From positions 1-39,681 of the IMG/VR virus record IMGVR_UViG_3300033067_000700: 39,681 bases of DNA. The stretch is one strand, 5' to 3'. The position numbers and the translations under genes were made by a program. This document shows positions 7,909 through 39,681 of the stretch, piece after piece. Origin of the DNA: a virus. Lineage: Duplodnaviria > Caudoviricetes. Below the pieces are notes generated by a model, which was not told the DNA's origin, made no database searches, and saw only the letters and a program-made list of their open reading frames with translations. Each line of letters starts with the position of its first letter. The first letter of the stretch is position 1.

Positions 7909-8199
7909 TTAACCTTTCATTCCTATAATACGAGTTATATACAAAAGTTCGTGTAGATCTATATATACTTCTTTTTCTGTTTCGCTTCCGCTATCTATCG
8001 TGATGCGAAAAATATCATCTTTTACTGCTTGCTCGTTTAGTTCCCAGTCAAGACGTACTTCATGGTTGCCTGATAAATCAGTGAGATACCCAACACCATC
8101 TCGTATAAGATCAGTAACTTTTGGCTTGTTGCGAAGGTTTGCCATAGATCTTGTAGCAGATCCAGCTCCTAAGCCACCACTTACTGCTCGACTAGACAC
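7909..8199 (-). CDS. Hypothetical protein (96 aa)
   Basis: ORF overlapping the end of groES, with GAAAGGA upstream. Confidence 0.6.
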   Translation of the reverse strand: MSSRAVSGGLGAGSATRSMANLRNKPKVTDLIRDGVGYLTDLSGNHEVRLDWELNEQAVKDDIFRITIDSGSETEKEVYIDLHELLYITRIIGMKG

Positions 8200-8435
8200 A
8201 AGATGTCCTTTTCTCGGATCAACTTCACGTTCTTATCAGATGTGTCTTGTACTGCGTAAGCATTAAACGTAACCGTTTGGTTTACATCAATAGAACTTAC
8301 AAGTGGACCTTTAGCTAATACCTTGCCTACATTCTTTGGCTTTTCCCATTGAGCCTGAGCTTTGTAAAGCCCCCCAACGGTTTTCTCTTCTTCAACAATT
8401 ATTTCTATTACGACTAGATCTCTTAGTGGTTGCAT
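8181..8435 (-). CDS. groES: Co-chaperonin GroES (Cpn10)
   Basis: MQPLRDLVVI start, mobile loop EEEKTVGGLY, GKVLAKGP and C-terminal LIREKDIL match the Cpn10 pattern. Confidence 0.9.
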   Translation of the reverse strand: MQPLRDLVVIEIIVEEEKTVGGLYKAQAQWEKPKNVGKVLAKGPLVSSIDVNQTVTFNAYAVQDTSDKNVKLIREKDILCLVEQ

Positions 8436-17080: not shown

Positions 17081-17425
17081 TTATTGCAACAGTCTGTTTT
17101 TCTTCTCTTCGGCACGTTGAGCGTAGTGCTTACGCAACACCTTCTGTACCTTCTGAGTTGAGTTAAACTCAGTAGCAACCATGTGCCCTTCAAGTTCGGC
17201 GTATTGGCGTTGCTTGTTCTTCCACTTGCGACCATTAGGTAGTTTTCGGCGTTTCTTTGTAAACGGCTTATCGCTTACTCGCCCACGACCAGGAACAGTA
17301 CTATCGCTGCCCCATTCAGATTTATAGGTATCGTGAATAGCCTTACGAGTTCGGCGGTGTCTGAACCGCATCTGCTCATCGTTTTCTAAAGTCATTGCAT
17401 CTTGCAAAGATAGTCCCCTACCCAT
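17081..17425 (-). CDS. Basic hypothetical protein (114 aa)
   Basis: TAATG-coupled to groEL; R/K-rich. Confidence 0.65.
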   Translation of the reverse strand: MGRGLSLQDAMTLENDEQMRFRHRRTRKAIHDTYKSEWGSDSTVPGRGRVSDKPFTKKRRKLPNGRKWKNKQRQYAELEGHMVATEFNSTQKVQKVLRKHYAQRAEEKKNRLLQ

Positions 17426-18993
17426 TACTGTCTAGCTCCCATAATTAAGTTCATTTCTTCTTGACTTACTTTTTCTTCAACTATCGCACCGCCAACCGTA
17501 ACTGCAAGTCCAGCAGTCGTAAGCGAGTTACGAACTACCTCACAGGTAACGATCATCGGGTCAATAATTCCAGCTTTAAGGGTGTCTACTTTCTCACCAG
17601 TCGCTACGTCAATTCCTTCGCCATGCTTAAACTTATCAACATTGAGGTTATAGCCTGAGTTTTCAAGTAGTATTTCAAACGGTAGTGTAAGCGTGTCGAG
17701 TACCCACTGAGTATCAGCAATCGGCTTAAGCTCATTTGCTATATCTCGTAAGGTAACACCACCACCAGCGACAACACCACCCTTAAGGGCAGCACGAACA
17801 GCATTGATCGCATCGTCCACTCGGTAGCGTTTCTCTTTAATTTCACTATCAGTCGCACCACCAATCTTGATCACACCAACACGACCTTCAAGGGTAGCAA
17901 TTCGTTCACGCAACATTTCTTGTTTTGTGTCGCTTGCATCTTCAACTTGGTTTTTAAGCGTATCAACACGATTTGCAACATCTTCTTCAGCACCCTTACC
18001 ACCGATAATGATAGTATCTTCCTGTGCTACGACAGTCTTATCAGCAGCACCAGCGTAACTAATATCGAGGTTGTCTTGCCAACCAGCAAGGGTCATGTCA
18101 ATCAGCTTACCGCCTGTGAGAATTGCAATATCTTCTAACTGCTCAACTCGGTTCTGATCGTAACTCGGACCTTTAACGACAACGGTGTTCAACACACCCT
18201 TCACCTTATTCAAGATAAGCGTGTTCATCGGATCAGCCTCAACCTTGTCAGCAATAATCATCAGAGCTTTGCAGCCACTTTGAAGGAGGGGGTCAAGCAC
18301 TCCCTTAAAGTCCTCAAGATCTGTGATCGTACCATTAACGGCAAGGATCGCAGTGTTTTCAAGAATTGACTTGCGAGCGTTCTGATCAGTAATAAAGTAC
18401 GGCGACATAAAGCCTTTTTCAAAAGCATAGCCTTCAACAACTGAGCTTTCATCTTCTAATGCCTGAGTATCTTCAACGGTGATCGCACCATCAAACCCTA
18501 CCTGTTCCATCACATCAGCAATAAGTTTAGCGAGTTTTGGATCGCCACCGACTGAGATCTTAGCAATGTTTTCAACATCAGCGTGAGTTTTACGGATCTG
18601 TTTTGCTTGAGCTTTTACTGCCTCAGTGAGCGGTTTAATGTACGCATCAAGTTCACGCTTAACGACCATCGGGTTAATACCTTTATCAACCTGTTCCATC
18701 GCAGCCTTGATAAGATGGTAAGTCAGGATCGTAACAGAAGTTGTACCGTCCCCTACCTCGTCCATCTTCGCACTTGCCTCTTTCACAAGATCAACACCAA
18801 TACTTTCAGGATCGTTCTCAAGTTTAACCGCACGAGCTACCGTAACACCATCATGAGTGATACTAAACGCACCAAACTTATCTTTGATCAAAACGTTTCG
18901 CCCTTTTGGTCCGAAAGTCGTCTTGACTGCATCATAAATAATTTCAGCACCCTTTAGTACGTTCGTTCGTGTTTCTTGGTCTTTAGTGATCAT
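17425..18993 (-). CDS. groEL: Chaperonin GroEL (Cpn60)
   Basis: TFGPKGRNV, ITHDGVTVA, GDGTTS, KGFMSPYF, ERIATLEGRVGVIKIGG, DDAINAVRAALKGGVVAGGG and GIIDP; no GGM tail. Confidence 0.97.
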   Translation of the reverse strand: MITKDQETRTNVLKGAEIIYDAVKTTFGPKGRNVLIKDKFGAFSITHDGVTVARAVKLENDPESIGVDLVKEASAKMDEVGDGTTSVTILTYHLIKAAMEQVDKGINPMVVKRELDAYIKPLTEAVKAQAKQIRKTHADVENIAKISVGGDPKLAKLIADVMEQVGFDGAITVEDTQALEDESSVVEGYAFEKGFMSPYFITDQNARKSILENTAILAVNGTITDLEDFKGVLDPLLQSGCKALMIIADKVEADPMNTLILNKVKGVLNTVVVKGPSYDQNRVEQLEDIAILTGGKLIDMTLAGWQDNLDISYAGAADKTVVAQEDTIIIGGKGAEEDVANRVDTLKNQVEDASDTKQEMLRERIATLEGRVGVIKIGGATDSEIKEKRYRVDDAINAVRAALKGGVVAGGGVTLRDIANELKPIADTQWVLDTLTLPFEILLENSGYNLNVDKFKHGEGIDVATGEKVDTLKAGIIDPMIVTCEVVRNSLTTAGLAVTVGGAIVEEKVSQEEMNLIMGARQ

Positions 18994-21308: not shown

Positions 21309-21500
21309 ATGCAATCATCAATAACTAATAAAAAGGTAATCAATACACTTGTTAATGCAGGTTATGGATCAACATCACTTGCATACATACTTTGCGAGCT
21401 TGAAGATCACCCGACACAACGAGAGTTTATCTTGTGTTACTGGTTGAACAAAAGTGCAGAGAGCCAGATCGTTAAAGAACTATTAAAGGAACTAGCATAA
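21309..21500 (+). CDS. Hypothetical early protein (63 aa)
   Basis: Start moved to ATG 21309 behind the conserved RBS. Confidence 0.65.
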   Translation: MQSSITNKKVINTLVNAGYGSTSLAYILCELEDHPTQREFILCYWLNKSAESQIVKELLKELA

Positions 21501-22249
21501 TGACACAGCAAGAAATAACCTATAAAGCACTTATTGATCAGATGCTTACATTTGAAGGATCAATGACAGATACTTACTCACGCTTTTATAATTACAGTTA
21601 TTACAATATGGCGTTGCTTTACTATCAAGGCGTTAAAACACCAGTTGCCACCTATAAGAAATGGCTTGAACTTGGACGACAAGTGCAAAAGGGATCTAAA
21701 GCTAAAGTTATCTGTATGCCTCGTATGTATAAGAATGAGGACAATGAAACAGAAATAGCTGGCTTTTCACTTCGCCCGACAGTGTTTGAATACTCACAGA
21801 CTGACGGTGAAGAACTTGAAATGCCACAGCCTAAGACTTGGCACATCTTAACCGCTACCGAAAAGCTAGGCATTAAAGAAGTATCTTACAATGCTTTACT
21901 AGGTAGCAATGGGAACGCTCAAGGCTACAGCATTAAGATGGAATATGCAGTAAGCCTGATGGCTAAATATCCTCTTAAGACCACACTTCATGAGATCGCT
22001 CATATCGTACTTGGACACACCACAAGGGACACGCAAGACGAAGAACACTCAGGCATCAGAGAGTTTCAGGCTGAGGCTACCGCTTACCTAGTCATGAAAG
22101 AACTCAAGATGACTAAGTGCATGAACGAAGGCGAAAGCCGAGCCTATGTGCAAAATTGGGTAAAGGGTACTCAGATCGAAGAGAAAGACCTTAAGCAAGT
22201 ATTCACAGCAGTAAACAAAATCATTAACGCAGGAAGGGAAGAGGCGTAG
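21500..22249 (+). CDS. ArdC-like protein (N-terminal ssDNA-binding domain plus zincin-like HExxH domain)
   Basis: YSYYNMALL...VATYKKWLELGRQVQKGSKA...VFEYSQT matches the ArdC N-terminal domain; TLHEIAHIVLGH...EFQAEATAY...Y..NW. Confidence 0.8.
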   Translation: MTQQEITYKALIDQMLTFEGSMTDTYSRFYNYSYYNMALLYYQGVKTPVATYKKWLELGRQVQKGSKAKVICMPRMYKNEDNETEIAGFSLRPTVFEYSQTDGEELEMPQPKTWHILTATEKLGIKEVSYNALLGSNGNAQGYSIKMEYAVSLMAKYPLKTTLHEIAHIVLGHTTRDTQDEEHSGIREFQAEATAYLVMKELKMTKCMNEGESRAYVQNWVKGTQIEEKDLKQVFTAVNKIINAGREEA

Positions 22250-23950: not shown

Positions 23951-24134
23951 CTTAGCAGCACTTAAGAAACTCGATAAACTTGAAACACCTATCGTAACAG
24001 TACGACCATTGATCGCTTATATCATGCGTGAGAGTGATTGCACCCTTCAAGAGATCGCAGACGTTTTTAACGTATCACGCCAACAGGCAGAAAATATCTA
24101 CAATAAAGCGAAAAGGGAACTAGGTGGTGAGTAA
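23919..24134 (+). CDS. Helix-turn-helix DNA-binding protein (sigma70 region 4-like)
   Basis: TLQEIADVFNVSRQQAENIYNKA. Confidence 0.8.
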   Translation: MAGRPKQTQANLAALKKLDKLETPIVTVRPLIAYIMRESDCTLQEIADVFNVSRQQAENIYNKAKRELGGE

Positions 24135-24636
24135 AACAGCAACAGCAGTCATATCATTTTTTATTGGTATGGGAGTAATCGTAGTCGGGCTAACTCTTGG
24201 AGTAGCATTGATCGTTAATGGCATAAGTGAACGAAAGACTTTTGTTATCGACAAAGAGTGGACCGTTGCAGTGAATGAATACCGTAAGCAAAACAATGTT
24301 GAACCAGTAAAAGAGGACTACTTTTTGAACACGCTCGCAGCAGCGAAATGCGATGATATGGTTGAACGTAACTATTACAGCCACTATGATCCTGATGGTA
24401 AGCGTATTGATGCACTAGCGATGAAACTATACTCATTTGATCTTAATAAAGAGGCTTGGGCTGAGAACATACATAAAGGTGCAATATATACGTCAAGTAA
24501 AACAATGCTCGATTGGTATAATTCGCCAGAGCATAGAAAAGCCATGCTTGATCCAGTTTATACACGAGTTGGACACGCTCAATGTTATTCAGGCAGCAGT
24601 TATACAATGGTGGAGGTTTTTACCGATGAATACTAG
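24124..24636 (+). CDS. Membrane-anchored CAP (SCP/PR-1) domain protein
   Basis: N-terminal transmembrane segment; VNEYRKQN, DMVERNYYSH, AENI, WYNSPEHRKAMLDPVYTRVG and VEVF. Confidence 0.88.
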   Translation: MVSKTATAVISFFIGMGVIVVGLTLGVALIVNGISERKTFVIDKEWTVAVNEYRKQNNVEPVKEDYFLNTLAAAKCDDMVERNYYSHYDPDGKRIDALAMKLYSFDLNKEAWAENIHKGAIYTSSKTMLDWYNSPEHRKAMLDPVYTRVGHAQCYSGSSYTMVEVFTDEY

Positions 24637-27881: not shown

Positions 27882-28901
27882 ATGTCAGAAATAAAAGTAG
27901 TTGGTTTAAGTTTCCGCCGAGTAACAAAGAAACTTCGCAGGAATAGCAAGGTAACACTTGTACCAGAGCCAACAAATAAATACGATCCTAACGCCCTCGC
28001 AGTTCACGCTGATGATGGTACTATGATCGGTTACATTGGTAAGGCTGATCCTTTCCGAGAAACACTTTTGAGCATGGCTAATAAAGAACCAGTAACCTTG
28101 AAGGTACTGATCGCACGACATCACAAAGAAGGTGATGACAAGCTATGGGAAAGCGTACAGGAAGGTGATCTTGTTCAGTTGTGGCTTGAGCCAGAAAAGA
28201 CAATGCGTAACGATAATCTATTCACTGAGGTTACGTCATTCACTGGTGAAAAGGTACTGTGGAGCGAGTTCTTACACGAGGCTACCGATCTTGAGGGTAA
28301 TACCCTTATGGGTGGATCTACCTACGCTAAACAGTTTGAGAGTGAGTTTGATGCAGTAAACATTGCTAAACGATACGCTAAGAAGAATGGCTATGATGCC
28401 GTTATGGTTCAGCAGTATTGGGAAAGCATGGGACGGCTATCAGCAGACTTTGGTACATCAGTACACAAGGCACTTGAACACTATGGTAAATATGCAAAGG
28501 TCTTTGGACACGAAGAGTGTATGCCTCGTATGCAACCGCTACGAGATGCAGTTGAGGCTTTTCTAGCCACCGCCGACTTTGAAGGCACAATTTCTGAACC
28601 GCTTATCACTGATGTTAAACAAGGTATGAGTGGTTGGGTCGATCTACTCAGGTTTACTGGTGATAAGGAAGTCTACATTGAGGACTTTAAGACCAACACC
28701 TTTAAGGAAGGCGACTATGCCACTAAGTGGAATAAGAGCCTTGCCATTTACCGCCACCAACTTAACTACTATGGTACGATCTTACAAAATCATGGCTATA
28801 CAGTTAAGGGCTTGGTAATCTGGCACTACCATGAGGGTAGTTGGAACAAGCACACAAGCGAGTTTACGCCTGTGGAAAACTATGTAAGAAAGGAAGTTTA
28901 A
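27882..28901 (+). CDS. HIRAN domain fused to a PD-(D/E)XK exonuclease
   Basis: VVGLSFR...LVPEPTNKYDPNALAV...IGYI is HIRAN; GTSVHKALE, GWVDLL, IEDFKT and QLNYY match a RecB/Cas4-like nuclease. Confidence 0.85.
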   Translation: MSEIKVVGLSFRRVTKKLRRNSKVTLVPEPTNKYDPNALAVHADDGTMIGYIGKADPFRETLLSMANKEPVTLKVLIARHHKEGDDKLWESVQEGDLVQLWLEPEKTMRNDNLFTEVTSFTGEKVLWSEFLHEATDLEGNTLMGGSTYAKQFESEFDAVNIAKRYAKKNGYDAVMVQQYWESMGRLSADFGTSVHKALEHYGKYAKVFGHEECMPRMQPLRDAVEAFLATADFEGTISEPLITDVKQGMSGWVDLLRFTGDKEVYIEDFKTNTFKEGDYATKWNKSLAIYRHQLNYYGTILQNHGYTVKGLVIWHYHEGSWNKHTSEFTPVENYVRKEV

Positions 28902-28902
28902 T

Positions 28903-29130
28903 ATGGTAAACCCAAAGGTAACAACCGAAACAGTTGAGGCTAATTCTACTCAAGAGCGTGATGCTCACATTGATGCAGAAACAGCTAAACGAACTGCAAG
29001 CTACGATCCTCTTTTGAAAGATCGTGCTAAGGCAGCAGGGATCAATCCCGACAACTTCGACACTGAGAGTTTACTCGGTGAGGCAGTTGAAGAATACGAA
29101 CGTAATAATCAAGAAAGTGAGAAAGAATAA
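28903..29130 (+). CDS. Hypothetical protein (75 aa)
   Basis: SD GAAAGGA. Confidence 0.7.
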   Translation: MVNPKVTTETVEANSTQERDAHIDAETAKRTASYDPLLKDRAKAAGINPDNFDTESLLGEAVEEYERNNQESEKE

Positions 29131-29131
29131 T

Positions 29132-29485
29132 ATGGCTGATCAAGAATGGACTGAGGCAGGTAATGGTGGTGAGGCTTGGAAGCCTGAGAACGTAGGTGAT
29201 ACGATCACTGGTACTTACAAGTCCCTAAAAACTAACGTAGGCATCAACAAGAGCAATATCTATGTGTTGCAAGAAGAAGGTAAAGACGAAACAACGTCTG
29301 TATGGGGTTCAACCGTACTTGATGGTCGTTTTGAAGAGATCCCTGTTGGTAGCCTTGTAAAGATTGAATATCTTGGTAAGGAAAAGGGCAAGTCGTCTCA
29401 ACCATACAAGAACTTCAAGGTCCTTTACAAAGCCGTACCTGGTGCTGTAGCTGACACCTTTCCTGGTGCAGAAGTAGCGAGCTAG
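29132..29485 (+). CDS. Putative single-stranded DNA-binding protein (OB fold)
   Basis: WKPENVGDTITGTY...VWGSTVLD...VKIEYLG...YKNFKV resembles a phage SSB family; start moved to ATG 29132. Confidence 0.7.
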   Translation: MADQEWTEAGNGGEAWKPENVGDTITGTYKSLKTNVGINKSNIYVLQEEGKDETTSVWGSTVLDGRFEEIPVGSLVKIEYLGKEKGKSSQPYKNFKVLYKAVPGAVADTFPGAEVAS

Positions 29486-29488
29486 TAT

Positions 29489-30031
29489 ATGGCTGATGGG
29501 GACTGGAAAGAGGCAGGGGGTGATACACCTCAAGCACCTGTGGGTGATAACTCCCTGCTCAGTTCTCTCAATATAGACGATTTTCGCTTAACAGAAAATG
29601 CTAAGTTTCAACAACTGAGTAAAGAACTTGCGGATCTTCAACAGAGGATCTTAAAGGACGAGAAAGAGGGGCGTTTATACAATTATGTGGAAAACCCCTC
29701 ACTACTCGGTGATTATCTTGGCAAGCTACGTCTTAGGTGTGCAGAGCTTTACAGCTTTTCTAACCTATACATTGACATCTTAAGTGATCTACAACGTGAG
29801 TACGCCTTAAAGCGACAGGAGTTGTATGTTGAAACTCTGAACAAGCCTAAAGGTTCGCCTTCAGGAGCAGAGAAACACGCACGAGAGATGACACGCATAG
29901 ATGAAAGTAAGATCGGCTTTATCGAGAACTGCTTACAACAAGTGAAAAATGAATATCAACGTTATGACGGTATTTGTATCTATCTGCAAAGTCGTATGAA
30001 AGAGTTTAACACTGAGCGTATGACCGCTTAG
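29489..30031 (+). CDS. Coiled-coil protein, possibly a UvsY-like recombination mediator
   Basis: All-helical; adjacent to SSB and nuclease. The functional call is weak. Confidence 0.45.
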   Translation: MADGDWKEAGGDTPQAPVGDNSLLSSLNIDDFRLTENAKFQQLSKELADLQQRILKDEKEGRLYNYVENPSLLGDYLGKLRLRCAELYSFSNLYIDILSDLQREYALKRQELYVETLNKPKGSPSGAEKHAREMTRIDESKIGFIENCLQQVKNEYQRYDGICIYLQSRMKEFNTERMTA

Positions 30032-30043
30032 AAGGGAATTGAA

Positions 30044-30268
30044 ATGAGTGATTTAACATTCGGACAAAAAGCTATGGGTGTAAAGTTTAACCCATCTGGT
30101 GATGAAAAAGTTGCACGATTAAAAGAGCTGTTTGCTGAAGTAGCAGACATCTTGAACGATGATCGGGGTGATAATCGTGATGAACGTGCAAGGCTGGCAT
30201 CGGTGGTGATCACTGAGGCTCAGACTGCTCAAATATGGGCTGTTAAAGCCGTAACATACGAGAGGTAG
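30044..30268 (+). CDS. Putative Acb2/Tad1-like helical-hairpin protein
   Basis: FNPSGDEKVARLKELFAEVAD...RLASVVITEAQTAQIWAVKAVT pattern. Confidence 0.55.
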   Translation: MSDLTFGQKAMGVKFNPSGDEKVARLKELFAEVADILNDDRGDNRDERARLASVVITEAQTAQIWAVKAVTYER

Positions 30269-30272
30269 TCGT

Positions 30273-30509
30273 ATGGGGGTATCAAGGAAACCAAACGGTA
30301 GATATGAGGCTCGTTACCGCCGTAATGGTAAAACGATCCATGTAGGGACGTTTGACACCGAAGAAGAGGCACGAGCAAACCTCAAGTTAGACCGACAGAC
30401 ATACGATGCTACTATGGCACAGCCTGTTGATCGCTATAAAGAAGAGCATTTAGATGCTCAAAAAGAACCTACATTGTGGGAACGAATTAAAGCAGCTTGG
30501 CGAGGTTAG
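30273..30509 (+). CDS. AP2-like DNA-binding domain protein
   Basis: GVSRKPNGRYEARYRRNGKTIHVGTFDTEEEA. Confidence 0.8.
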   Translation: MGVSRKPNGRYEARYRRNGKTIHVGTFDTEEEARANLKLDRQTYDATMAQPVDRYKEEHLDAQKEPTLWERIKAAWRG

Positions 30510-30510
30510 T

Positions 30511-30897
30511 ATGAATAGCTATCTTCAGCTAACCATTCATGGTCAGACACCAGCTCAGAAGAATAGTAAACAGATTGCACGTTTAAGAGATGGTCGTACC
30601 ATTCTCATAAGTAATAAGATTGTTCAGGCATGGCAGAAAGAGGCAGCAAAAGAGCTTGCACTACTTTACCAGCGTGATACATTCACTGAACGAGTAAGAA
30701 TATCTTACATGTTCTTTGTGAAGGACAATCGAGGCAGGGACATTGACAATATGATTGCCTCAGTCAATGATGCACTTGTTAAGGCAGGTATCATACTGGA
30801 CGATAAATGGCAGTTACTCGCCATAAGATCAGCAGATGCACAACTCGACAAGGAAAACCCTCGTGCAGAGATTGTCATAGAGAAGTATGGGCTATGA
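30511..30897 (+). CDS. rusA: RusA-family Holliday junction resolvase
   Basis: GQTPAQKNS, RDIDNMIASVNDALVKAGIILDD and NPRAEIVI; ATG at 30511 behind GAGG. Confidence 0.88.
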   Translation: MNSYLQLTIHGQTPAQKNSKQIARLRDGRTILISNKIVQAWQKEAAKELALLYQRDTFTERVRISYMFFVKDNRGRDIDNMIASVNDALVKAGIILDDKWQLLAIRSADAQLDKENPRAEIVIEKYGL

Positions 30898-32471: not shown

Positions 32472-33767
32472 TTATGCCTTTCTGATGTTAGCTATATTTA
32501 TTGCAGCCCATACCTGACCACGAGCTACCAGCACCGCACGATCACCCTTTACCTCTGAAACGGTATAAGTAGGATCGTACTGAGTGAGAGGTACACCATC
32601 GTAACTGATACGGTTGATCGGTACGACAGTATCACCTTGCTTAATGGCGGCAGTGTTAGGTTTAGGAGCAGGTACACCAGCGTTCACAATAGCCTGAATA
32701 GCATCATAGTTATAGCCAGCAGCTACCAGACGGTTTTTACGCTCAGGGTTATTACCCCAATCGCCACGAGCCACCTCACGAGCTATTTCCTCGTTACTCT
32801 TACGAGCAGGAGTTGTAGGTACTGGTTGAGGAGCAGGAGCAGGAGTGTTATTTACCCAACCCTTGTAACGGAACGCACCAGCGAAGGCAGATTTAGCCAC
32901 ACGAGTAACATTGAAGGCAGCACCACCATTAGCACCGACAGCACCTCCCTGATTTTGTCCTAAGATCTTCATGTAGTTACCGTCATAGCCATCGAAGAAA
33001 CCGATATGGTTAGGTCGCATAACAACGACATCACCGAGCTTAAGGCTATTTACATCGTACACAAGATCAAACTTATCGTATTTGTTTCGGTCCTTGTTAA
33101 GATCCCATGTACCAACCGCTAGACCGTTACCAGTAACCAGTGATAGTCCTAGCTGTTGCCAGAGCAGTGCAGCACCGTCCCAGCACTGCCAACCGTAGTA
33201 GTTATCTATATCGAAGCCTCGACCCTCAACAGCACTCTTAAATGCAGCGTATGATCCGATGGGCACTGAGTAGAACGTACCAACGCCACCTTCTTGCTCG
33301 TCAGCGATCTTTTGTTTTAGGTACTCCTCAGATGGTTTAGGTAGTCCAGCAATATCAAAGACCAGAGGCTTATCAGGATCAGTGTTTACAGCCTGTTCTT
33401 GAATAGCTTTCACCTGATCATCTGTTAGCCCTATTGTGATACCGAGTTTAGCGACAGTCTTACCAGCCATAACACCACTTGCGAGTAGCATAAGAGCGAA
33501 TATGACACGAGGAGCAATAGCCTCAACATTTTGTAGTTCTATGCCCTGTAGAGCAGACTGAGCGATCAGCAGGTAAGTACCGACAGCCAAGCCAACGACT
33601 ACACCACCGAGAGCAAGCCATTTTACCAAGCCATTGACGTACTTTCGCCAATCAAACTTCTGCTCGAATACATTGATATTCTGATATGCACCGACAACGG
33701 TATAGAGAACTACAAACAAGCTGTAGATCCCAAAGTCCGTAAGTGCTGTGAGTAATACGTCTATCAT
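32472..33767 (-). CDS. Endolysin with holin-like 3-TM N-terminus, CHAP domain, Cpl-7 (CW_7) repeat and SH3-like domain
   Basis: DIDNYYGWQCWD...GDVVV...NHIG...ILGQNQ is CHAP; KSNEEIAREVARGDWGNNPERKNRLVAAGYNYDAIQAIVN is CW_7. Confidence 0.88.
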   Translation of the reverse strand: MIDVLLTALTDFGIYSLFVVLYTVVGAYQNINVFEQKFDWRKYVNGLVKWLALGGVVVGLAVGTYLLIAQSALQGIELQNVEAIAPRVIFALMLLASGVMAGKTVAKLGITIGLTDDQVKAIQEQAVNTDPDKPLVFDIAGLPKPSEEYLKQKIADEQEGGVGTFYSVPIGSYAAFKSAVEGRGFDIDNYYGWQCWDGAALLWQQLGLSLVTGNGLAVGTWDLNKDRNKYDKFDLVYDVNSLKLGDVVVMRPNHIGFFDGYDGNYMKILGQNQGGAVGANGGAAFNVTRVAKSAFAGAFRYKGWVNNTPAPAPQPVPTTPARKSNEEIAREVARGDWGNNPERKNRLVAAGYNYDAIQAIVNAGVPAPKPNTAAIKQGDTVVPINRISYDGVPLTQYDPTYTVSEVKGDRAVLVARGQVWAAINIANIRKA

Positions 33768-33777
33768 ATAATCTCCT

Positions 33778-34101
33778 TTATTTCTTTTTCATTAAGTTAA
33801 GCGTTTCTTCACCAACAGTACGAATTGTACTGAGTTCAGATGCAATGTTTTGCAAAGGTACGTCTTTGAGAACGCTCACCTGTCCTCGTAGTTCGGCAAT
33901 TTCACCAGTGTGTTTAGTGTGATCATCAGTCAGTTTATTTATTTGATCCTTTTGTTCAGCCTTACCAGCCTGTAGTGTGGTGATCAGGTTTTTTTGTTCC
34001 TCAACTGTGGCGGTCAATGTCTTACTTTTTAGCACCAGCACCGAGCCAATGATGGTAGTAATACCACCCACAGTTGTTGTTACAATTCCCAATAATTCCA
34101 T
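33778..34101 (-). CDS. Membrane protein with coiled coil (holin/lysis accessory)
   Basis: N-terminal transmembrane segment then heptad repeats; directly upstream of the lysin. Confidence 0.55.
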   Translation of the reverse strand: MELLGIVTTTVGGITTIIGSVLVLKSKTLTATVEEQKNLITTLQAGKAEQKDQINKLTDDHTKHTGEIAELRGQVSVLKDVPLQNIASELSTIRTVGEETLNLMKKK

Positions 34102-34199
34102 ATTTTCACCCTTTCAGTCGTTTTTATTTTGTCAATCTTTTAACTTAATTATAACACCATAATAAATATAAGTTTGACCCTAATTTTTTAGGGGCGAAC

Positions 34200-34241
34200 C
34201 ACTACAAGTTACCTCCTATAATTTAGGAAAAAGAAGTGTAA
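34200..34241 (+). repeat. Left 42-bp inverted repeat of the tail-fibre invertible segment
   Basis: CACTACAAGTTACCTCCTATAATTTAGGAAAAAGAAGTGTAA is the exact reverse complement of 35028-35069. Confidence 0.95.
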
Positions 34242-34588
34242 GCTATCAAAACATCAAAGAAAGCACATACACTTTGGAAGAACAAGCAGTCGGTACATGG
34301 GTAGATGGAAAGACTATTTATCGCAAGTCATGGGTTGGCACAAGTTCACTACCAACTGCTCATGGTATTACAGGGCTAGATGTACCTCTAGCCCTTGAAG
34401 CATTTGTGTTTAACAACGCCTCTGGTAGTACATGGCGACCTATTCCCTGGACGTTTAACGCTGGTGCTTACGATGCAACATGGAATGGTGGTGTTTCTAT
34501 AAGCTCAACCACCTTCTCATGGCAACTTGGTACAAACTTGGGCGTGTTCAACAGGAATGTCGTAACACTCTACTACACTAAGACTTAA
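34202..34588 (+). other. Silent alternative tail-fibre C-terminal cassette (tip B, 115 aa after the repeat)
   Basis: In frame from the repeat: LQVTSYNLGKRSV|SYQNIKESTYTLEEQAVGTWVDGKTIYRK...LYYTKT*. GTWxDGKxIYRK...YTK is a common fibre-tip module. Confidence 0.85.
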
Positions 34589-36420
34589 AGTACCTCGTAC
34601 CAACCACCTATCATAAAGCTATCTGCACCATTAGCCCATGTCATAGGTACTGTTGGTGAGGTGGCTGATGGGCTAAGGTATGTACCTACCGCATTGAAAC
34701 AGAGTAACGCCATAGTTGTAGGCGAAATTAACTGTGCCTCAGCAGGGAATTGAGCTGTGCCACCATCTAAGATATAACCCTTACTGTTAAGAGGGTTAAT
34801 AGGCGATAGTTGAGCATGTTTAGGGCTTACTGGTACAGGTAATGAAAATGTATGCTGACCAGTAACCGATGCACCTTGTGTAACCTTGAGGTAGAAGAAA
34901 CAAAACTTACCAATTAAGGTGTATCTAGCCACATCTATCGTACCTGTAAAGTTTGTAAGTATTGGTGTCCAGTCCTGCCATTGAGAAGTTGAACCACTAA
35001 GACTTTCAAAATCAATATTTAAGCCCTTTACACTTCTTTTTCCTAAATTATAGGAGGTAACTTGTAGTGTCTGTGGTAAACCATAAGGGGCTTCACCAGT
35101 TGAGAAGAATAGTGAGTTGAGGGTCATGTTTGGAATGAAGTCATCACCAGCGTACACCTGAATAATGGTGTTAGGAGCAGAGTAAGTAACAGATACGATC
35201 CTCGCATAGCCAGTAGACTTAAAGACGTTACCAGCAGATACGGCAGCACCGCCTGACCCTGTGAGGTGGTTAGCGTTAGACGTAAGATCGTTTAGGTTAG
35301 TGCTGAATGGGTAGTAAGCAACAAGGTTAGTTTCGCTACCAGTAAGCATCTGACCCATATTGTCATTGATCTGAGTAGAAGTCCTGATAGTGTTCCATAC
35401 TCGCACCTCTTGTAGACGACCATCGAAGTATAGTGATGCAGCAGAGCTTAATGCACCTACACGAAGATCTGAAGTACCCTGAACGATAGCAGTGATCGTA
35501 CCAGTGGTGGTATTAGTGAAGGTTACGCTTTCACCGTTGATGTACATAGCATGTACGTTAGCTGAGTGATCCTGAGTAACAGCAACATGAATAGGCTCAC
35601 CAAGCGGTAGTACTCTGTTAGATGTAAGAACTCGGTTGTTTGCAGCGATACGTTGTGCGGTTGCGACTAACTGACCACTTGCATTAACAGATAGCGACCA
35701 GCCTTCAGTTGTACCATTCCTACGTCCCACGATGATCTGTTCAGCACCAGTATAGCTTTCAAGAGTAAATAGAGCCTCAAGGGTGTAGTCATCAGTAAAT
35801 GAGATACCAGCAGGAGTAGCTTTTGTAGCATATTGAGAGCTTGAGCTTTCAAGATCAAGTGAGTTAGCAGGTGGTGTTGTACCACGCTCATAACGAAGAG
35901 CCATACCCTGAGAGGCAATAGATGTTGCATCAGCGTTTGGTACGGTAAGGTTGTAGATCTTCGCACCTAAGTTATAGCCAGAGCTTACCTGTAGTACGTT
36001 AGGGAAAACCTCCCAACCAGCAGTTGAGGCAGTAGACAGATTAAGGGCTTCACGAATAGGATCAGCTTTAAGTGAGCCGTCCTGTTCCATAATCCCCTTG
36101 AGAGCTTTAGTAACAAGGTTATAGTGAGTGGCACTGTCGTAGTCCACAACAGGAGCACCAGAGGCGTGATCGGCAGATACGTTACCTTCTGTCCATACAC
36201 AGTCCTCAAACTGGTTTCCGTTTTTACGCCCGACAAAGGTAGCCTCATCGTTCGTACCAGCATCAACAGTGATAACAGCAATATCACCATTCACATATTC
36301 ACTAGCATTGTTCACTGGTACGATAACAGCACCAGCAGTAATAGAGGCACTAAGGTTGTCCTCAAAGGTTTCACTCGCAGTTGCGAGGAAGTTTGTTGTT
36401 ACTCCTGAAAGATCCGCCAT
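34585..36420 (-). CDS. Tail fibre / receptor-binding protein with LamG domain and variable tip (tip A)
   Basis: DYTLEA...HVAVT...MYING...LRVG...FDGRLQEVRVWNTIRT...LVAYYPF is LamG; C-terminal WTP...ARYTLIGK...FSLPV...GWYEV module. Confidence 0.88.
   Translation of the reverse strand: MADLSGVTTNFLATASETFEDNLSASITAGAVIVPVNNASEYVNGDIAVITVDAGTNDEATFVGRKNGNQFEDCVWTEGNVSADHASGAPVVDYDSATHYNLVTKALKGIMEQDGSLKADPIREALNLSTASTAGWEVFPNVLQVSSGYNLGAKIYNLTVPNADATSIASQGMALRYERGTTPPANSLDLESSSSQYATKATPAGISFTDDYTLEALFTLESYTGAEQIIVGRRNGTTEGWSLSVNASGQLVATAQRIAANNRVLTSNRVLPLGEPIHVAVTQDHSANVHAMYINGESVTFTNTTTGTITAIVQGTSDLRVGALSSAASLYFDGRLQEVRVWNTIRTSTQINDNMGQMLTGSETNLVAYYPFSTNLNDLTSNANHLTGSGGAAVSAGNVFKSTGYARIVSVTYSAPNTIIQVYAGDDFIPNMTLNSLFFSTGEAPYGLPQTLQVTSYNLGKRSVKGLNIDFESLSGSTSQWQDWTPILTNFTGTIDVARYTLIGKFCFFYLKVTQGASVTGQHTFSLPVPVSPKHAQLSPINPLNSKGYILDGGTAQFPAEAQLISPTTMALLCFNAVGTYLSPSATSPTVPMTWANGADSFMIGGWYEVL
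35028..35069 (-). repeat. Right 42-bp inverted repeat, inside the tail-fibre gene
   Basis: Encodes LQVTSYNLGKRSV of the fibre; exact inverted copy of 34200-34241. Confidence 0.95.
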
Positions 36421-36477
36421 GTTTGTTTTCCTTTCGTCTTGGGGTTATGCCCGACTACTTTTTCTTTTATTATATCA
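36421..36477 (-). promoter_or_regulatory. Duplicated late leader, copy 1: TATAAT promoter, CAUAAC hairpin and SD
   Basis: TATAATAAAAGAAAAAGTA-GTCGGG-CATAAC-CCCAAGAC-GAAAGGAAAACAAAC-ATG. Confidence 0.75.
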
Positions 36478-38481
36478 CTCTGTAAAAAGTTCCCAATCAG
36501 GAGGCAGACCACCATCAGAGGCAGTTCCGACAACCTGTAGGGTTCGTAGAATATATTGTGCATCAAGGGTATTCGTACTTACTCGGTATTGGTAGGCGTT
36601 GATGTCCTCGTTTACTCCGAAGAACCTCTTAAGAGATGGCTCAGAGTACGATACGACAGCGTTTTCAACATCGGTCCACTTGTGAATTGACCATTTACCA
36701 GTTGTCCACGACCTCTTAACACGAGAAGGACGAATGTACATCGGATCACCAAGACGGCGATAACCATCTTCACGAGTGATACCTGAAAGCTCGATCATCA
36801 GCGTACCACGAGAGTTAGCAAACTCTACCTCAGCATTGTCGATCCACATGAAGTCAAAGCGGTTTCGCTCGTTTACATGTCGCAGACCAGTAATAAGAGA
36901 GGTTGTAATTGGTTGTCCGTAGTCCCCTCGAATATCAGGACTGATCTCAGATAGACGGCTATCACCTGGTTTCCAGCAAAGCAGACGAATATCACCGTAC
37001 TGATCGGTATAGTTGAAGAACCTCTTAAAGCCTTTATCGAAGGCTTGAGGTAGCCATGCTTTACGTTCAGTATCGAATACGATTGTGTAGTTGTTCAATT
37101 CACTGTTGTACGGTACAGACATGTACACCTTAGCATTTTGGAAGTGAGAGGCAATACCGCTCGCAGCAGATGTCTTGATGTTCAAGATGTTAGGACGAAT
37201 GTTAGCACTCGCCTCATCTGTTGAAAGAAGGTTGAGGAATTGAGCACGACTACCTAAGTTGTAGAAAGCCTGAAGGTTGAAGTACATGTAATCGTTCAAC
37301 ACGTTCACAACAGAGCCAGGTGCAGATGTACCACGAGAGCCAGGCAATTTGTAGAAGTTTGGCACAGGGAATGTAACATCGCCAACTGTAAAACTTTCTA
37401 GCGTTCCTTGCCAGATACAGCCAAGACCATCAGGGCTATCACACCAGACTGTTGCCAGTGGCGTACCCTTACCATCTCGGTAATCGACAACCTTTACAGG
37501 TTTCGTAGGGTTATCACGAGTAGGCAGATCAATATAGGTTGCATCGTAGGCAGATGAGAAGTAACCGATGTATTTACCAGCAGCAGAGATCCATACTCGG
37601 TTTGAGAAGTCCCTATCACGAGTGGCATAGATACGAGTACCAACAAGGCTCATATCACCAACACGAGGACCTTGAGTGGTGTTCTGCTCAGGTACTTCGC
37701 CAGTGATCTGCTCAACAGATTGACCTTGATCTATATAGGTAAGTGCAGATGCATCAACACTATCAAGATATACTTCTTCGCCAGCAGTTTGACCAACATA
37801 GATGTCATAGCGAATAGCCCCCACAACGGCGTTCCATGTGAAGGTTGTTTTATTTGAGGCATCGAAAGTGGCACGAGTACGATCAGTCTGAATAGTTAAA
37901 GCGGTACTCGCCTGAGTGTAACCAATGTCGTTTACAGCACTTACTCGGTAACGGTAGGTATAAGCAGTACCACCAAGACCAGTCTTAGTCAGGCTTACAG
38001 GGGTAGGACTTGAGAGGGCGGTGTACACAGAAAGTGTCGTAGATCCTGAGTAACGAATAATGTTGTCCCAGCCATTAAAGATGTACATATAAGTATTAGC
38101 TTGTAAAAAGCCTACATCTTTGCCAGGAGTGAAAGCACCACCAGTACAGGTAGACCAGTTAAGACCGTCATTGGTTGATCGGTACACAATACCATTTACC
38201 ACCTTAATAAGATGAATACTGCCATCAGAGGCAGCGTACATTTCAGCCCCTTCGATCTCGTGAGCAGGATCAGCAGCCGTACCGTACCAGTCGATACCAT
38301 CACGCACCATTGGTGCTCCATCTTCTGCGAGCTTGATATTAACACCTTCTTTCAAGGCGTTTCGTGGGAGCTTACTCTGGTCAATAAGCGTGATAACACC
38401 ACGATCAAACTTGTCCTGTGTCAGAACTGCTTGATTAGGTGGGTTATCAGGTAGCCCACTAAGGGTAGAGGGCATTACCAT
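36475..38481 (-). CDS. Tail nozzle / DNA stabilisation protein (P22 gp10 / T7 gp12-like) with an Fn3-like insertion
   Basis: 668 aa, beta-propeller-like; YTYRYRVSAVN and NRVWIS; lies between adaptor and fibre genes. Confidence 0.7.
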   Translation of the reverse strand: MVMPSTLSGLPDNPPNQAVLTQDKFDRGVITLIDQSKLPRNALKEGVNIKLAEDGAPMVRDGIDWYGTAADPAHEIEGAEMYAASDGSIHLIKVVNGIVYRSTNDGLNWSTCTGGAFTPGKDVGFLQANTYMYIFNGWDNIIRYSGSTTLSVYTALSSPTPVSLTKTGLGGTAYTYRYRVSAVNDIGYTQASTALTIQTDRTRATFDASNKTTFTWNAVVGAIRYDIYVGQTAGEEVYLDSVDASALTYIDQGQSVEQITGEVPEQNTTQGPRVGDMSLVGTRIYATRDRDFSNRVWISAAGKYIGYFSSAYDATYIDLPTRDNPTKPVKVVDYRDGKGTPLATVWCDSPDGLGCIWQGTLESFTVGDVTFPVPNFYKLPGSRGTSAPGSVVNVLNDYMYFNLQAFYNLGSRAQFLNLLSTDEASANIRPNILNIKTSAASGIASHFQNAKVYMSVPYNSELNNYTIVFDTERKAWLPQAFDKGFKRFFNYTDQYGDIRLLCWKPGDSRLSEISPDIRGDYGQPITTSLITGLRHVNERNRFDFMWIDNAEVEFANSRGTLMIELSGITREDGYRRLGDPMYIRPSRVKRSWTTGKWSIHKWTDVENAVVSYSEPSLKRFFGVNEDINAYQYRVSTNTLDAQYILRTLQVVGTASDGGLPPDWELFTE

Positions 38482-39200
38482 TAGAGTTCAATCCTTCCTA
38501 CAGGTGTAGCTTTACCCCAGCCTGTATCAAGTCCGATATTGGCAGAATTGCCAGGAGTACCAGAGTAGTTTTCAATCTTCATATTGATCAGAGCGTTATT
38601 GGCATCTTTTTGTGATGTCTTGTAACCGAAACCGTTACGAGCGTTTGCATAGCGTGAACTCAGCATATCTTGAATAGCAAAGTTAGGATCACTCATTTCA
38701 ATGACAGTGGTAGACGGATCTGAGGTGGTAGGTAGCAGAGTAGGTTCTTTGTAGTAAACATAGTCGATATTCCAGCCGTCATACTGTACGGTCAGATCAT
38801 TTGCAACATGTAACTTAAAGCCTTTGTTCGCACCACCAGAGAAGAATACACCAGAGGTGATAGTTTCACCGTCCCTTAGTTGAGAGGTACGAATATCGGT
38901 ATGTTCGTTGCCATTGTAAAAGCGTACCCAAGTAGGAGCTTTGCGAATGTTTTTCATACCGTCATAGATCAGTGTACCGTTCGTGAGTACCAGAGTACCA
39001 GTGATCGGTACAAGTGCCTCTTCTTGAGCAGTGGTAAGTAGCTCGTTCCACAATACACCGTCAGCCCTCGCCCATTTACGAATAGCATTGATACAGGCAT
39101 AGGTCGCCTGAGTAAACTCACGATCCCCATAACTAGGAATGTTAGAGGCTTGCCCCCTGAAGAGGCTAAAGTATTCTGAAAAGATAGCTTTGAAGTCCAT
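38481..39200 (-). CDS. Head-tail adaptor / tail tubular protein
   Basis: 239 aa; ACINAIRKW...IDYVYYKEPTLL; TAATG-coupled to the nozzle gene. Confidence 0.6.
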   Translation of the reverse strand: MDFKAIFSEYFSLFRGQASNIPSYGDREFTQATYACINAIRKWARADGVLWNELLTTAQEEALVPITGTLVLTNGTLIYDGMKNIRKAPTWVRFYNGNEHTDIRTSQLRDGETITSGVFFSGGANKGFKLHVANDLTVQYDGWNIDYVYYKEPTLLPTTSDPSTTVIEMSDPNFAIQDMLSSRYANARNGFGYKTSQKDANNALINMKIENYSGTPGNSANIGLDTGWGKATPVGRIEL

Positions 39201-39257
39201 GTTTGTTTTTCCTTTCCGCTAGAGTTATGTCTGCGTACTTTTTCTTTTATTATACTA
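39201..39257 (-). promoter_or_regulatory. Duplicated late leader, copy 2
   Basis: TATAATAAAAGAAAAAGTA-CGCAGA-CATAAC-TCTAGCG-GAAAGGAAAAACAAAC-ATG. Confidence 0.75.
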
Positions 39258-39681
39258 CGCTTTAGATTTTCCTCTCTTGATCTTCACACCACCACCTGTA
39301 GCCTTCTTAACCACCTTAACAGTAGGGGTTTTAACCTGAATACGGTTGATCTTCACAGATCGTGCATTACCATAGTCAATACTACGTTTACCGCTATCAG
39401 ATGACTTACTGTAACCACCACTCTTACGGCTTGAACTACTATCACCATCAGTATCAGTAAAGGTAGTAGCCTGTTTATATTGTTCAGCACTCATTGGTGG
39501 GTAACCTTCGATCTCTCGCATCTTATTGATCAATGCAAGCTGTTCAGTCTTGTAAGCATCTGATTGTGCTTTCCATGCATCATAGTTAGCAGAGAACCAC
39601 GCTTTACTTTCAGGTGATCCATATTCAAGGCTTTTCTGTTGTGCAACTAATGGGTATCGGCTAGTCCACTCGGCAGGTGTT
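39255..39681 (-). CDS. C-terminal part of the giant ejection protein (continues from base 1)
   Basis: The junction reads in frame ...FSTTNED-G-TPAEWTSRYPL...; basic C-terminal tail. Confidence 0.85.
   Translation of the reverse strand, partial: TPAEWTSRYPLVAQQKSLEYGSPESKAWFSANYDAWKAQSDAYKTEQLALINKMREIEGYPPMSAEQYKQATTFTDTDGDSSSSRKSGGYSKSSDSGKRSIDYGNARSVKINRIQVKTPTVKVVKKATGGGVKIKRGKSKA

What the first reader, a model, noticed from the sequence alone, without database searches (positions are those of the whole stretch)
34200..35069. Invertible tail-fibre tip cassette with no recognisable invertase in the genome
Seen: perfect 42-bp inverted repeats (34200-34241 and 35028-35069) flank two convergent, unrelated fibre tips whose stop codons overlap in TTAA (34585-34588). 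Both repeats read LQVTSYNLGKRSV in frame, so inversion would convert the 611-aa fibre (464 constant + 147) into a 579-aa fibre (464 + 115). Established: the Mu Gin and P1 Cin systems switch host range this way, but encode an adjacent serine invertase. I recognise no serine or tyrosine recombinase in this apparently complete genome. Inference: flipping uses a host recombinase (the repeat has a TCCTA-N5-TAGGA dyad) or the phage nuclease/SSB/RusA recombination set.
Basis: partly seen in the sequence, partly recalled or inferred. Interest (0 to 1): 0.85.

Follow-up and report, generated by a model that had tools for sequence, protein, structure and literature searches.

The report
Recombinase-free swappable phage fibre tips
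A complete phage genome keeps a spare, backwards-facing tip for its likely tail fibre between two identical 42-base repeats; close relatives plug seven different tips into that same site and one places a spare-type tip in the active slot, yet no flipping enzyme is recognisable, so ordinary homologous recombination likely does the swapping and would likely change which cells the phage can bind.

Summary
Confirmed: a perfect 42-bp inverted repeat (34200-34241/35028-35069), both copies in frame, flanks two unrelated convergent tips; flipping gives 579 aa instead of 611. The genome is complete (a relative spans the join) and has no tyrosine, serine or IS110 recombinase in six frames. The silent tip is an intact β-domain (pLDDT 92.6) with 1,410 relatives.

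The cassette occurs in 3 of 3 close loci and 0 of 31 distant ones; repeats are 41-51 bp. Close fibres diverge at this site into seven tip types. One relative (run X6) joins the constant part to a B-type tip, and another keeps an A-type remnant silent. So both tip types occupy both slots across strains. Flipping within one population was not observed: the available contigs cannot resolve it.

Most likely mechanism: general homologous recombination at a shared anchor (0.5); rival: a borrowed site-specific recombinase (0.25).

It works like Mu G/Gin but is not a member. A recombinase-less phage inversion is in print (PMC6109161), and this scan noted the design in at least six other genomes. New variant of a known kind.

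The parts
35029..36420 (-). Constant part of the likely tail fibre / receptor-binding protein (codons 1-464), with a LamG lectin-like domain at residues 196-352
   Evidence: 464 shared residues; Pfam PF13385, E 2e-17; 414-445 of the first 451 residues identical in 8 close relatives
35028..35069 (-). Right copy of the 42-bp repeat, in frame inside the fibre gene (LQVTSYNLGKRSV); the point where relatives swap tips
   Evidence: relatives diverge 1-10 residues after the site
34585..35028 (-). Expressed-slot tip A (147 aa) and its stop codon
   Evidence: same tip type in L005, P0002, P0004, P0123 and at the C-terminus of unrelated fibres P0144 and P0145
34585..34588 (.). TTAA in which the two convergent stop codons overlap
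   Evidence: Same overlap in 3 of 3 assembled loci, involving six tip sequences; in X6 the two stops are adjacent instead
34241..34588 (+). Silent-slot tip B (115 aa), intact, with no start of its own upstream of the repeat
   Evidence: 1,410 relatives at E<=0.001; model pLDDT 92.6, seven strands; fold matches phage proteins, one named tail fiber protein, E 5e-5
34200..34241 (+). Left copy of the 42-bp repeat, outside any upstream gene
   Evidence: same outer boundary in L004 and L005 and in runs X7 and X8
34172..34199 (.). Conserved hairpin just outside the left repeat, possibly a terminator
   Evidence: Folds at -12.0 kcal/mol, kept with changed loop in L005 at -10.3; not called by the terminator scan
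34148..34156 (-). Possible extended -10 promoter element for the lysis genes
   Evidence: Read by eye, kept in L005; not called by the promoter scan, so unverified
27882..30897 (+). Phage recombination module, a candidate helper: PD-(D/E)XK exonuclease with HIRAN (27882-28901), probable SSB (29024-29485, my inference), 180-aa ORF (29489-30031, UvsY lead only), RusA resolvase (30454-30897)
   Evidence: Exonuclease and RusA. SSB has no database support. UvsY: atlas cluster with 13% of members carrying the family, but the Pfam UvsY search was negative

Best explanation
This is a two-slot tip cassette in which a shared 42-bp in-frame anchor joins interchangeable end domains to one constant likely tail fibre, and general homologous recombination between anchor copies likely both flips the cassette and imports tips from related phages. 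Shown: the geometry, the intact spare tip, seven tip types joined at the anchor, both tip types in both slots across strains, and no recognisable recombinase. Inferred: host RecA, possibly helped by the phage exonuclease and RusA, crosses over within the anchor. A crossover between the inverted copies on one genome would invert the 786-bp inner segment; one between genomes in a mixed infection would swap tips. Switching would probably be rarer than Gin-driven switching, and selection on available hosts would set which form is seen. That the tips bind different receptors is inferred from position and fold, not tested.
For: (1) Perfect repeat length is at least 41 bp in every two-copy strain where it could be measured: 42 (window; X1), 51 (L004), 43 (L005), 41 (X7), 47 (X8). 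This is above the minimal pairing segments of 31-34 bp for RecA and 23-27 bp for Red-beta given in PMC3945230 (passage). (2) In L005 both copies share a substitution at position 5, near the outer edge, while the outer flank is homologous to the window's. That needs conversion between copies, which homologous exchange gives readily (inference). (3) The inner boundary varies with whatever the two tips share. (4) No dyad above chance. (5) No recombinase. (6) The same site is the swap point between strains: 8 close fibres keep the constant part and fall, with the loci, into 7 tip types by BLASTP. (7) X6 record 11 runs constant part, repeat, then a B-type start: 19 of 30 nt and 6 of 9 aa match tip B, a level reached by 5 of 79,302 window 30-mers. 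X6 record 10 has a B-type end convergent with tip A. L004's silent 23-aa stub is the end of an A-type tip (E 5e-5 to 1e-3). (8) Other modules are also exchanged between these strains: L004 has a different lysin and L005 a different holin.
Against: No population was seen with both orientations: all 8 runs laid are contigs; in X23, X24, X1, X7 and X8 they break at the repeat. The two X6 contigs are not joined, differ in depth (13.4 and 4.2), and the B-type tip is a diverged homologue, so X6 shows tip placement, not a flip of this allele. The repeat is somewhat more conserved at DNA level than nearby coding sequence (L005: 1 of 13 codons changed against 32 of 92, P=0.03; L004: 0 of 13 against 57 of 451, P=0.17), which a sequence-specific enzyme would also give. 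No ERF, RecT, Sak or Sak4 annealing protein appeared. The spare is sometimes decayed (L004) or absent (X13 joint 34142-34583; X7 loose end at 34193), so it is not always maintained.
Confidence: 0.5

Rival explanations
1. A site-specific recombinase supplied in trans (host chromosome, a resident prophage or a co-infecting element) recognises part of the 42-mer and flips the cassette, as in Gin/Cin systems that lost their own enzyme.
For: Fixed outer boundary and near-invariant sequence across strains; modest excess conservation in L005 (P=0.03). PMC6109161 proposes exactly this for a bifidophage locus without a flanking recombinase (passage). Genomes of the best-guess host class carry such enzymes: tyrosine recombinases in 59 of 61, serine recombinases in 40 of 61.
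Against: No dyad above chance. The 25-bp core with up to 3 mismatches is in 0 of 301 genomes of that class. A 12-bp half-site is in 7 of 151, fewer than the reversed control. No match above shuffles near 30 tyrosine and 30 serine recombinase genes. The dif-like motif beside that class's Xer gene does not resemble the repeat. None of 31 more distant fibre loci has the cassette, so no invertase-bearing sister was seen. The host is uncertain, so these negatives are limited.
Confidence: 0.25
2. The cassette is effectively static: the spare tip is a by-product of occasional recombination between strains and flips too rarely to matter within a population.
For: No mixed population observed; a decayed spare in L004; single-tip forms in X13 and X7. 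Among assembled loci and proteins the A type was seen expressed 5 times and the B type never; the only B-expressed case is X6.
Against: Full-length intact spares in the window and L005, with different tips. Two identical copies kept in every two-copy strain measured, including a shared change in L005. Stop codons overlap exactly in 3 of 3 loci. B-type in the expressed slot in X6.
Confidence: 0.17
3. One of the phage's unannotated ORFs is an unrecognised recombinase.
For: Several ORFs of 100-314 aa have no family hit.
Against: No gene of any kind flanks the cassette except the lysis and tail genes; six-frame searches for four recombinase families found no candidate. These ORFs were not folded.
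Confidence: 0.06
4. The inverted repeat is an assembly artefact.
For: Short-word assemblies break at the repeat.
Against: The repeat contig has about the summed depth of two copies in X24 (453 against 214-246) and X8 (63.5 against 34-36). The same layout occurs in independent assemblies L004 and L005.
Confidence: 0.02

Closest known systems
Mu G segment / Gin, P1 C segment / Cin, p15B Min (serine-invertase tail-fibre switches; described in passages of PMC6109161 and preprint 10.64898/2026.02.14.705889; site anatomy recalled)
   Same: Constant N-terminal fibre part, in-frame crossover repeat, two convergent alternative C-termini between inverted repeats.
   Different: No invertase anywhere in the complete genome, no dyad site, no integrase, one fibre gene with no visible chaperone partner inside the segment, repeat length varying 41-51 bp between strains.
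Second inverted locus of Bifidobacterium prophages Bb423phi2 / 689b-1 (PMC6109161, passage read)
   Same: Two-way inversion of about 500 bp at the 3' end of a structural gene, no flanking recombinase, opposite orientations in two relatives.
   Different: That site is 8 bp, too short for general recombination, and the authors propose an invertase in trans; those are integrated prophages. Here the repeat is 41-51 bp and the phage has no integrase.
Rin shufflon of Bifidobacterium prophages (PMC6109161, passages)
   Same: Variable receptor-binding C-termini joined to a constant part at a short repeated site.
   Different: Rin has an adjacent tyrosine invertase, 11-bp sites and five cassettes per genome; here two slots per genome, with the tip library spread over strains.
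30-kb genome isomers of Anabaena cyanophages (preprint 10.64898/2026.02.14.705889, passages)
   Same: Inversion between inverted repeats in phages, both orientations real; the authors leave open a site-specific enzyme versus general genome fluidity.
   Different: Repeats of 400-700 bp around about 30 kb; no gene fusion is switched in the passages read.

Membership tests
Gin/Cin/Pin/Min serine-invertase fibre switches | Alternative fibre C-termini between inverted repeats, fused in frame to a constant part | tested here: met
Gin/Cin/Pin/Min serine-invertase fibre switches | Serine invertase gene next to the segment | tested here: not met
   PF00239 and PF07508 six-frame: 0 candidates
Gin/Cin/Pin/Min serine-invertase fibre switches | Crossover site with dyad half-sites around a 2-bp core (recalled) | tested here: not met
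   Best axes have spacers of 5 or 1 nt and are at chance level
Gin/Cin/Pin/Min serine-invertase fibre switches | Fis-bound recombinational enhancer (recalled) | not tested
   Host unknown
Gin/Cin/Pin/Min serine-invertase fibre switches | Both orientations coexist in a population | tested here: inconclusive
   Only contigs available; opposite slot use across strains
Gin/Cin/Pin/Min serine-invertase fibre switches | Orientation changes host range | not testable with these tools
   Inferred from unrelated tips and fold matches
Tyrosine-invertase shufflons (Rin) | Adjacent tyrosine recombinase | tested here: not met
   PF00589 six-frame: 0 candidates
Tyrosine-invertase shufflons (Rin) | Several cassettes with short repeated sites in one genome | tested here: not met
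   Only two copies of the repeat in the genome
Xer/dif-exploiting elements | Site resembles the host dif (two 11-bp arms, 6-bp centre; PMC5357621 passage) | tested here: inconclusive
   No likeness to the dif-like motif beside the Xer gene in the best-guess host class and no enrichment there; the true host is not established

The most novel reading that the evidence does not exclude
A phage lineage uses a short in-frame homology anchor as an enzyme-free socket: each genome carries one active and one spare receptor-binding tip and flips them by general recombination, while the population shares a library of at least seven tips through the same anchor. Programmed host-range switching without any dedicated recombinase would then be a distinct and, going by this scan's other notes, widespread strategy.
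Probability: 0.4. Interest if true: 0.7.

Novelty: new variant of a known kind. Interest (0 to 1): 0.5.

Why it matters
Phage tail switches are usually found through their invertase gene, so enzyme-free cassettes would be missed. If general recombination over about 40 bp is enough to make a spare tip worth keeping, non-integrating phages can hedge host range at the cost of about 440 bp. The exact swap point and the seven natural tips give a direct way to test what drives fibre mosaicism. The outcome is the same as in Mu, a recombinase-less case is already in print, and flipping is not yet observed, which limits the surprise.

Tried and rejected
Direct orientation counts: all 24 runs listed were kept as contigs, not reads; 8 were laid. 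No joint changed strand, but contigs that break at the repeat cannot show one, so this is no evidence either way. Search for a long protein ending in tip B: none among 331 candidates, weak evidence; none of the 150 best tip-B relatives carries the site motif; the window fibre's own cluster has no 579-aa member. Dyad as recombinase site: rejected. Host dif or host recombinase neighbourhoods: no match. Single-sequence fold of tip B failed (pLDDT 42.8); the alignment-based fold worked. No solved-structure match at E<=0.001 by fold or profile; the wider structural search did not run. Tip A was not folded. No Pfam or PHROG family for any tip; no tip B match in cultured phages. UvsY and SSB labels not confirmed. 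The 6-bp direct repeat at the X13 joint as a target-site duplication: considered and set aside, as the region is AT-rich and the case is single. The L004 codon comparison was faulty and was redone. Host: best genome hits lie in bins labelled Peribacteria (52%) and Saccharibacteria (37%), third an Anaerolineaceae bin; 2 of 401 genomes of that phylum hold a tail-protein relative. These may be co-binned phage contigs, so the host is left open.

Full report
Observation. The window holds a perfect 42-bp inverted repeat at 34200-34241 and 35028-35069, 786 bp apart; the next best pair is 38 nt at 71%, and chance expectation is about 1e-16. The right copy lies in frame in a 611-aa gene (36420-34585, minus strand), the left copy heads a 115-codon open frame on the plus strand, and both read LQVTSYNLGKRSV. 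Inverting the segment in silico gives 579 aa, 464 shared plus 115. The two stops overlap in TTAA at 34585-34588.

The genome. It is a 39.7-kb phage with terminase, major head protein, GroEL and GroES, DnaB-like helicase, exonuclease, RusA and a CW_7-type endolysin. IMG/VR lists it as linear and 93% complete, but the large ORF reads through the joined ends and relative L004 continues from window 39681 into window 1 with no gap, so the sequence is whole. No recombinase or integrase was found: 61 ORFs against Pfam and PHROGs, 30 ORFs including antisense frames against NCBIfam, and six-frame searches for PF00589, PF00239, PF07508 and PF01548 with zero candidates while control genomes rang. The single PHROG integrase hit is a 78-aa AP2-like ORF matching only positions 116-189 of a 611-position profile. 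Sequence runs holding the region are mostly wastewater, sludge and soil metagenomes (8 of 24 laid). The host is not established.

The gene and its tips. The 611-aa protein has a LamG lectin-like domain at 196-352 and sits between tail genes and lysis genes; calling it a tail fibre or receptor-binding protein is inference. Tip B is a real, intact domain: 1,410 relatives at E<=0.001, often C-terminal or in tandem, a confident seven-stranded model (pLDDT 92.6), and 10 fold matches at E<=0.001 among phage proteins, one named tail fiber protein. No solved structure matched at that level. Tip A also ends two otherwise unrelated proteins at 57-58% identity. A and B are unrelated.

Relatives. A search with the constant part returned 235 proteins, 120 listed. 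Five were 94-98% identical, and cluster look-up added three more full-length ones. All 8 keep the constant part (414-445 of 451 residues) and the site (one has K to E), then diverge within 1-10 residues. A metagenome scan for the repeat gave two loci, each with two inverted copies. L004 has a 51-bp repeat, a different expressed tip and a 23-aa silent stub that is the C-terminal end of an A-type tip. L005 has a 43-bp repeat whose two copies share one substitution, an A-type expressed tip and a full 125-aa silent tip of another type. By BLASTP the 13 tips compared fall into seven types. The cassette is in 3 of 3 close loci, each with the TTAA overlap, and in 0 of 31 more distant fibre loci, L006-L036 (the other 71 genome loci, weak LamG-domain matches, were left out).

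Orientation. Contigs of X23, X24 and X1 break at the repeat, which forms its own 42-nt contig at about summed depth. That confirms two identical copies but cannot show orientation. One search adds X7 (41-nt repeat, B-like start, other partner) and X8 (47-nt repeat, other tips). The key case is X6: one 1,795-nt contig runs through the constant part and the repeat into a B-type start (19 of 30 nt, 6 of 9 aa; 5 of 79,302 window 30-mers score as high; tip A scores 11 of 30), and a second contig has a B-type end convergent with tip A (17 of 29 nt). This is the layout expected from the inverted state. Against over-reading: the two contigs are not joined, their depths differ (13.4 and 4.2), and the B-type tip is a diverged homologue. 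With the A-type remnant silent in L004, both types are seen in both slots across strains. Single-tip forms also exist: X13 has a joint that skips 440 bp holding tip B and the left repeat, and X7 has a minor contig without the left repeat. Flipping inside one population was not observed.

Mechanism. In the best-guess host class the core was in 0 of 301 genomes, a 12-bp part in 7 of 151, fewer than the reversed control, and flanks of 30 tyrosine and 30 serine recombinase genes matched no better than shuffles; the dif-like motif beside their Xer gene is unlike the repeat. These negatives depend on an uncertain host. For general recombination: every measured repeat pair is 41-51 bp of perfect identity, above the 31-34 bp (RecA) and 23-27 bp (Red-beta) minimal segments quoted in PMC3945230 (passage); the shared change in both L005 copies implies conversion between them; the inner edge varies; and the same point is where strains exchange tips, in a lineage that also swaps lysin and holin genes. 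Against: modest excess DNA conservation of the site (P=0.03 in L005, 0.17 in L004), and no recognisable phage annealing protein (UvsY is a lead only). I give general recombination 0.5, a borrowed site-specific enzyme 0.25, a static by-product 0.17, a cryptic phage enzyme 0.06 and artefact 0.02.

Comparison. It works like Mu G/Gin and P1 C/Cin but fails two defining tests, the invertase and the dyad site, so it is not filed as a member. PMC6109161 (passages) already describes a roughly 500-bp bifidophage inversion without a flanking recombinase, at an 8-bp site, and proposes an enzyme in trans. Preprint 10.64898/2026.02.14.705889 (passages) shows 30-kb phage isomers with an open mechanism. [quoted passage not shown] PMC13501310 (passages) reports 16 candidate viral invertons without mechanism. 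PMC5357621 was read in passages for dif anatomy. Other papers were seen as search listings only; no supplements were read. In eight searches of the open library I saw no listing for a fibre-tip switch driven by general recombination in an integrase-free phage; subscription papers are not covered. This scan has noted invertase-less tip cassettes in at least six other genomes (unchecked notes), none on this DNA or its look-alikes.

Verdict. It is a real, lineage-specific two-slot tip cassette with a strain-level library of tips and no dedicated enzyme, most likely driven by homologous recombination. New variant of a known kind; interest 0.5.

Noticed in passing
window 8181-8435 and 17425-18993: The 39.7-kb phage encodes both GroES and GroEL, unusual for so small a genome (from my own knowledge).
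   Followed up: no
window 30044-30268: Acb2/Tad1 hairpin-domain protein (PF24729, E 4e-9), a likely anti-defence nucleotide sponge.
   Followed up: no
window 21500-22249 and 24124-24636: ArdC-like anti-restriction protein and a CAP-domain protein in the early region.
   Followed up: no
window 32472-34101 against L004 5327-6499 and L005 1269-2412: The lysis module is exchanged between close strains: L004 (about 95% identical elsewhere) has a different lysin; L005 has a different holin plus an extra 254-aa gene, and run X13 shows the L005-type holin start.
   Followed up: partly
window 34143-34582: Run X13 has a joint that skips the silent tip, left repeat and hairpin between two 6-bp direct repeats; this is either a deletion or the ancestral single-tip state.
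   Followed up: partly
L123, L126, L132, L139, L141, L143, L144, L149 (position 1125-1144 in gene direction): A conserved dif-like motif sits at a fixed place near the start of the single Xer-type recombinase gene in 8 of 30 loci from the class of G001; a candidate dif site for that class.
   Followed up: partly
window 36417-36484 and 39197-39264: A 68-nt direct repeat (75% identical) upstream of two tail genes, probably a shared promoter and ribosome-binding element (D9).
   Followed up: no
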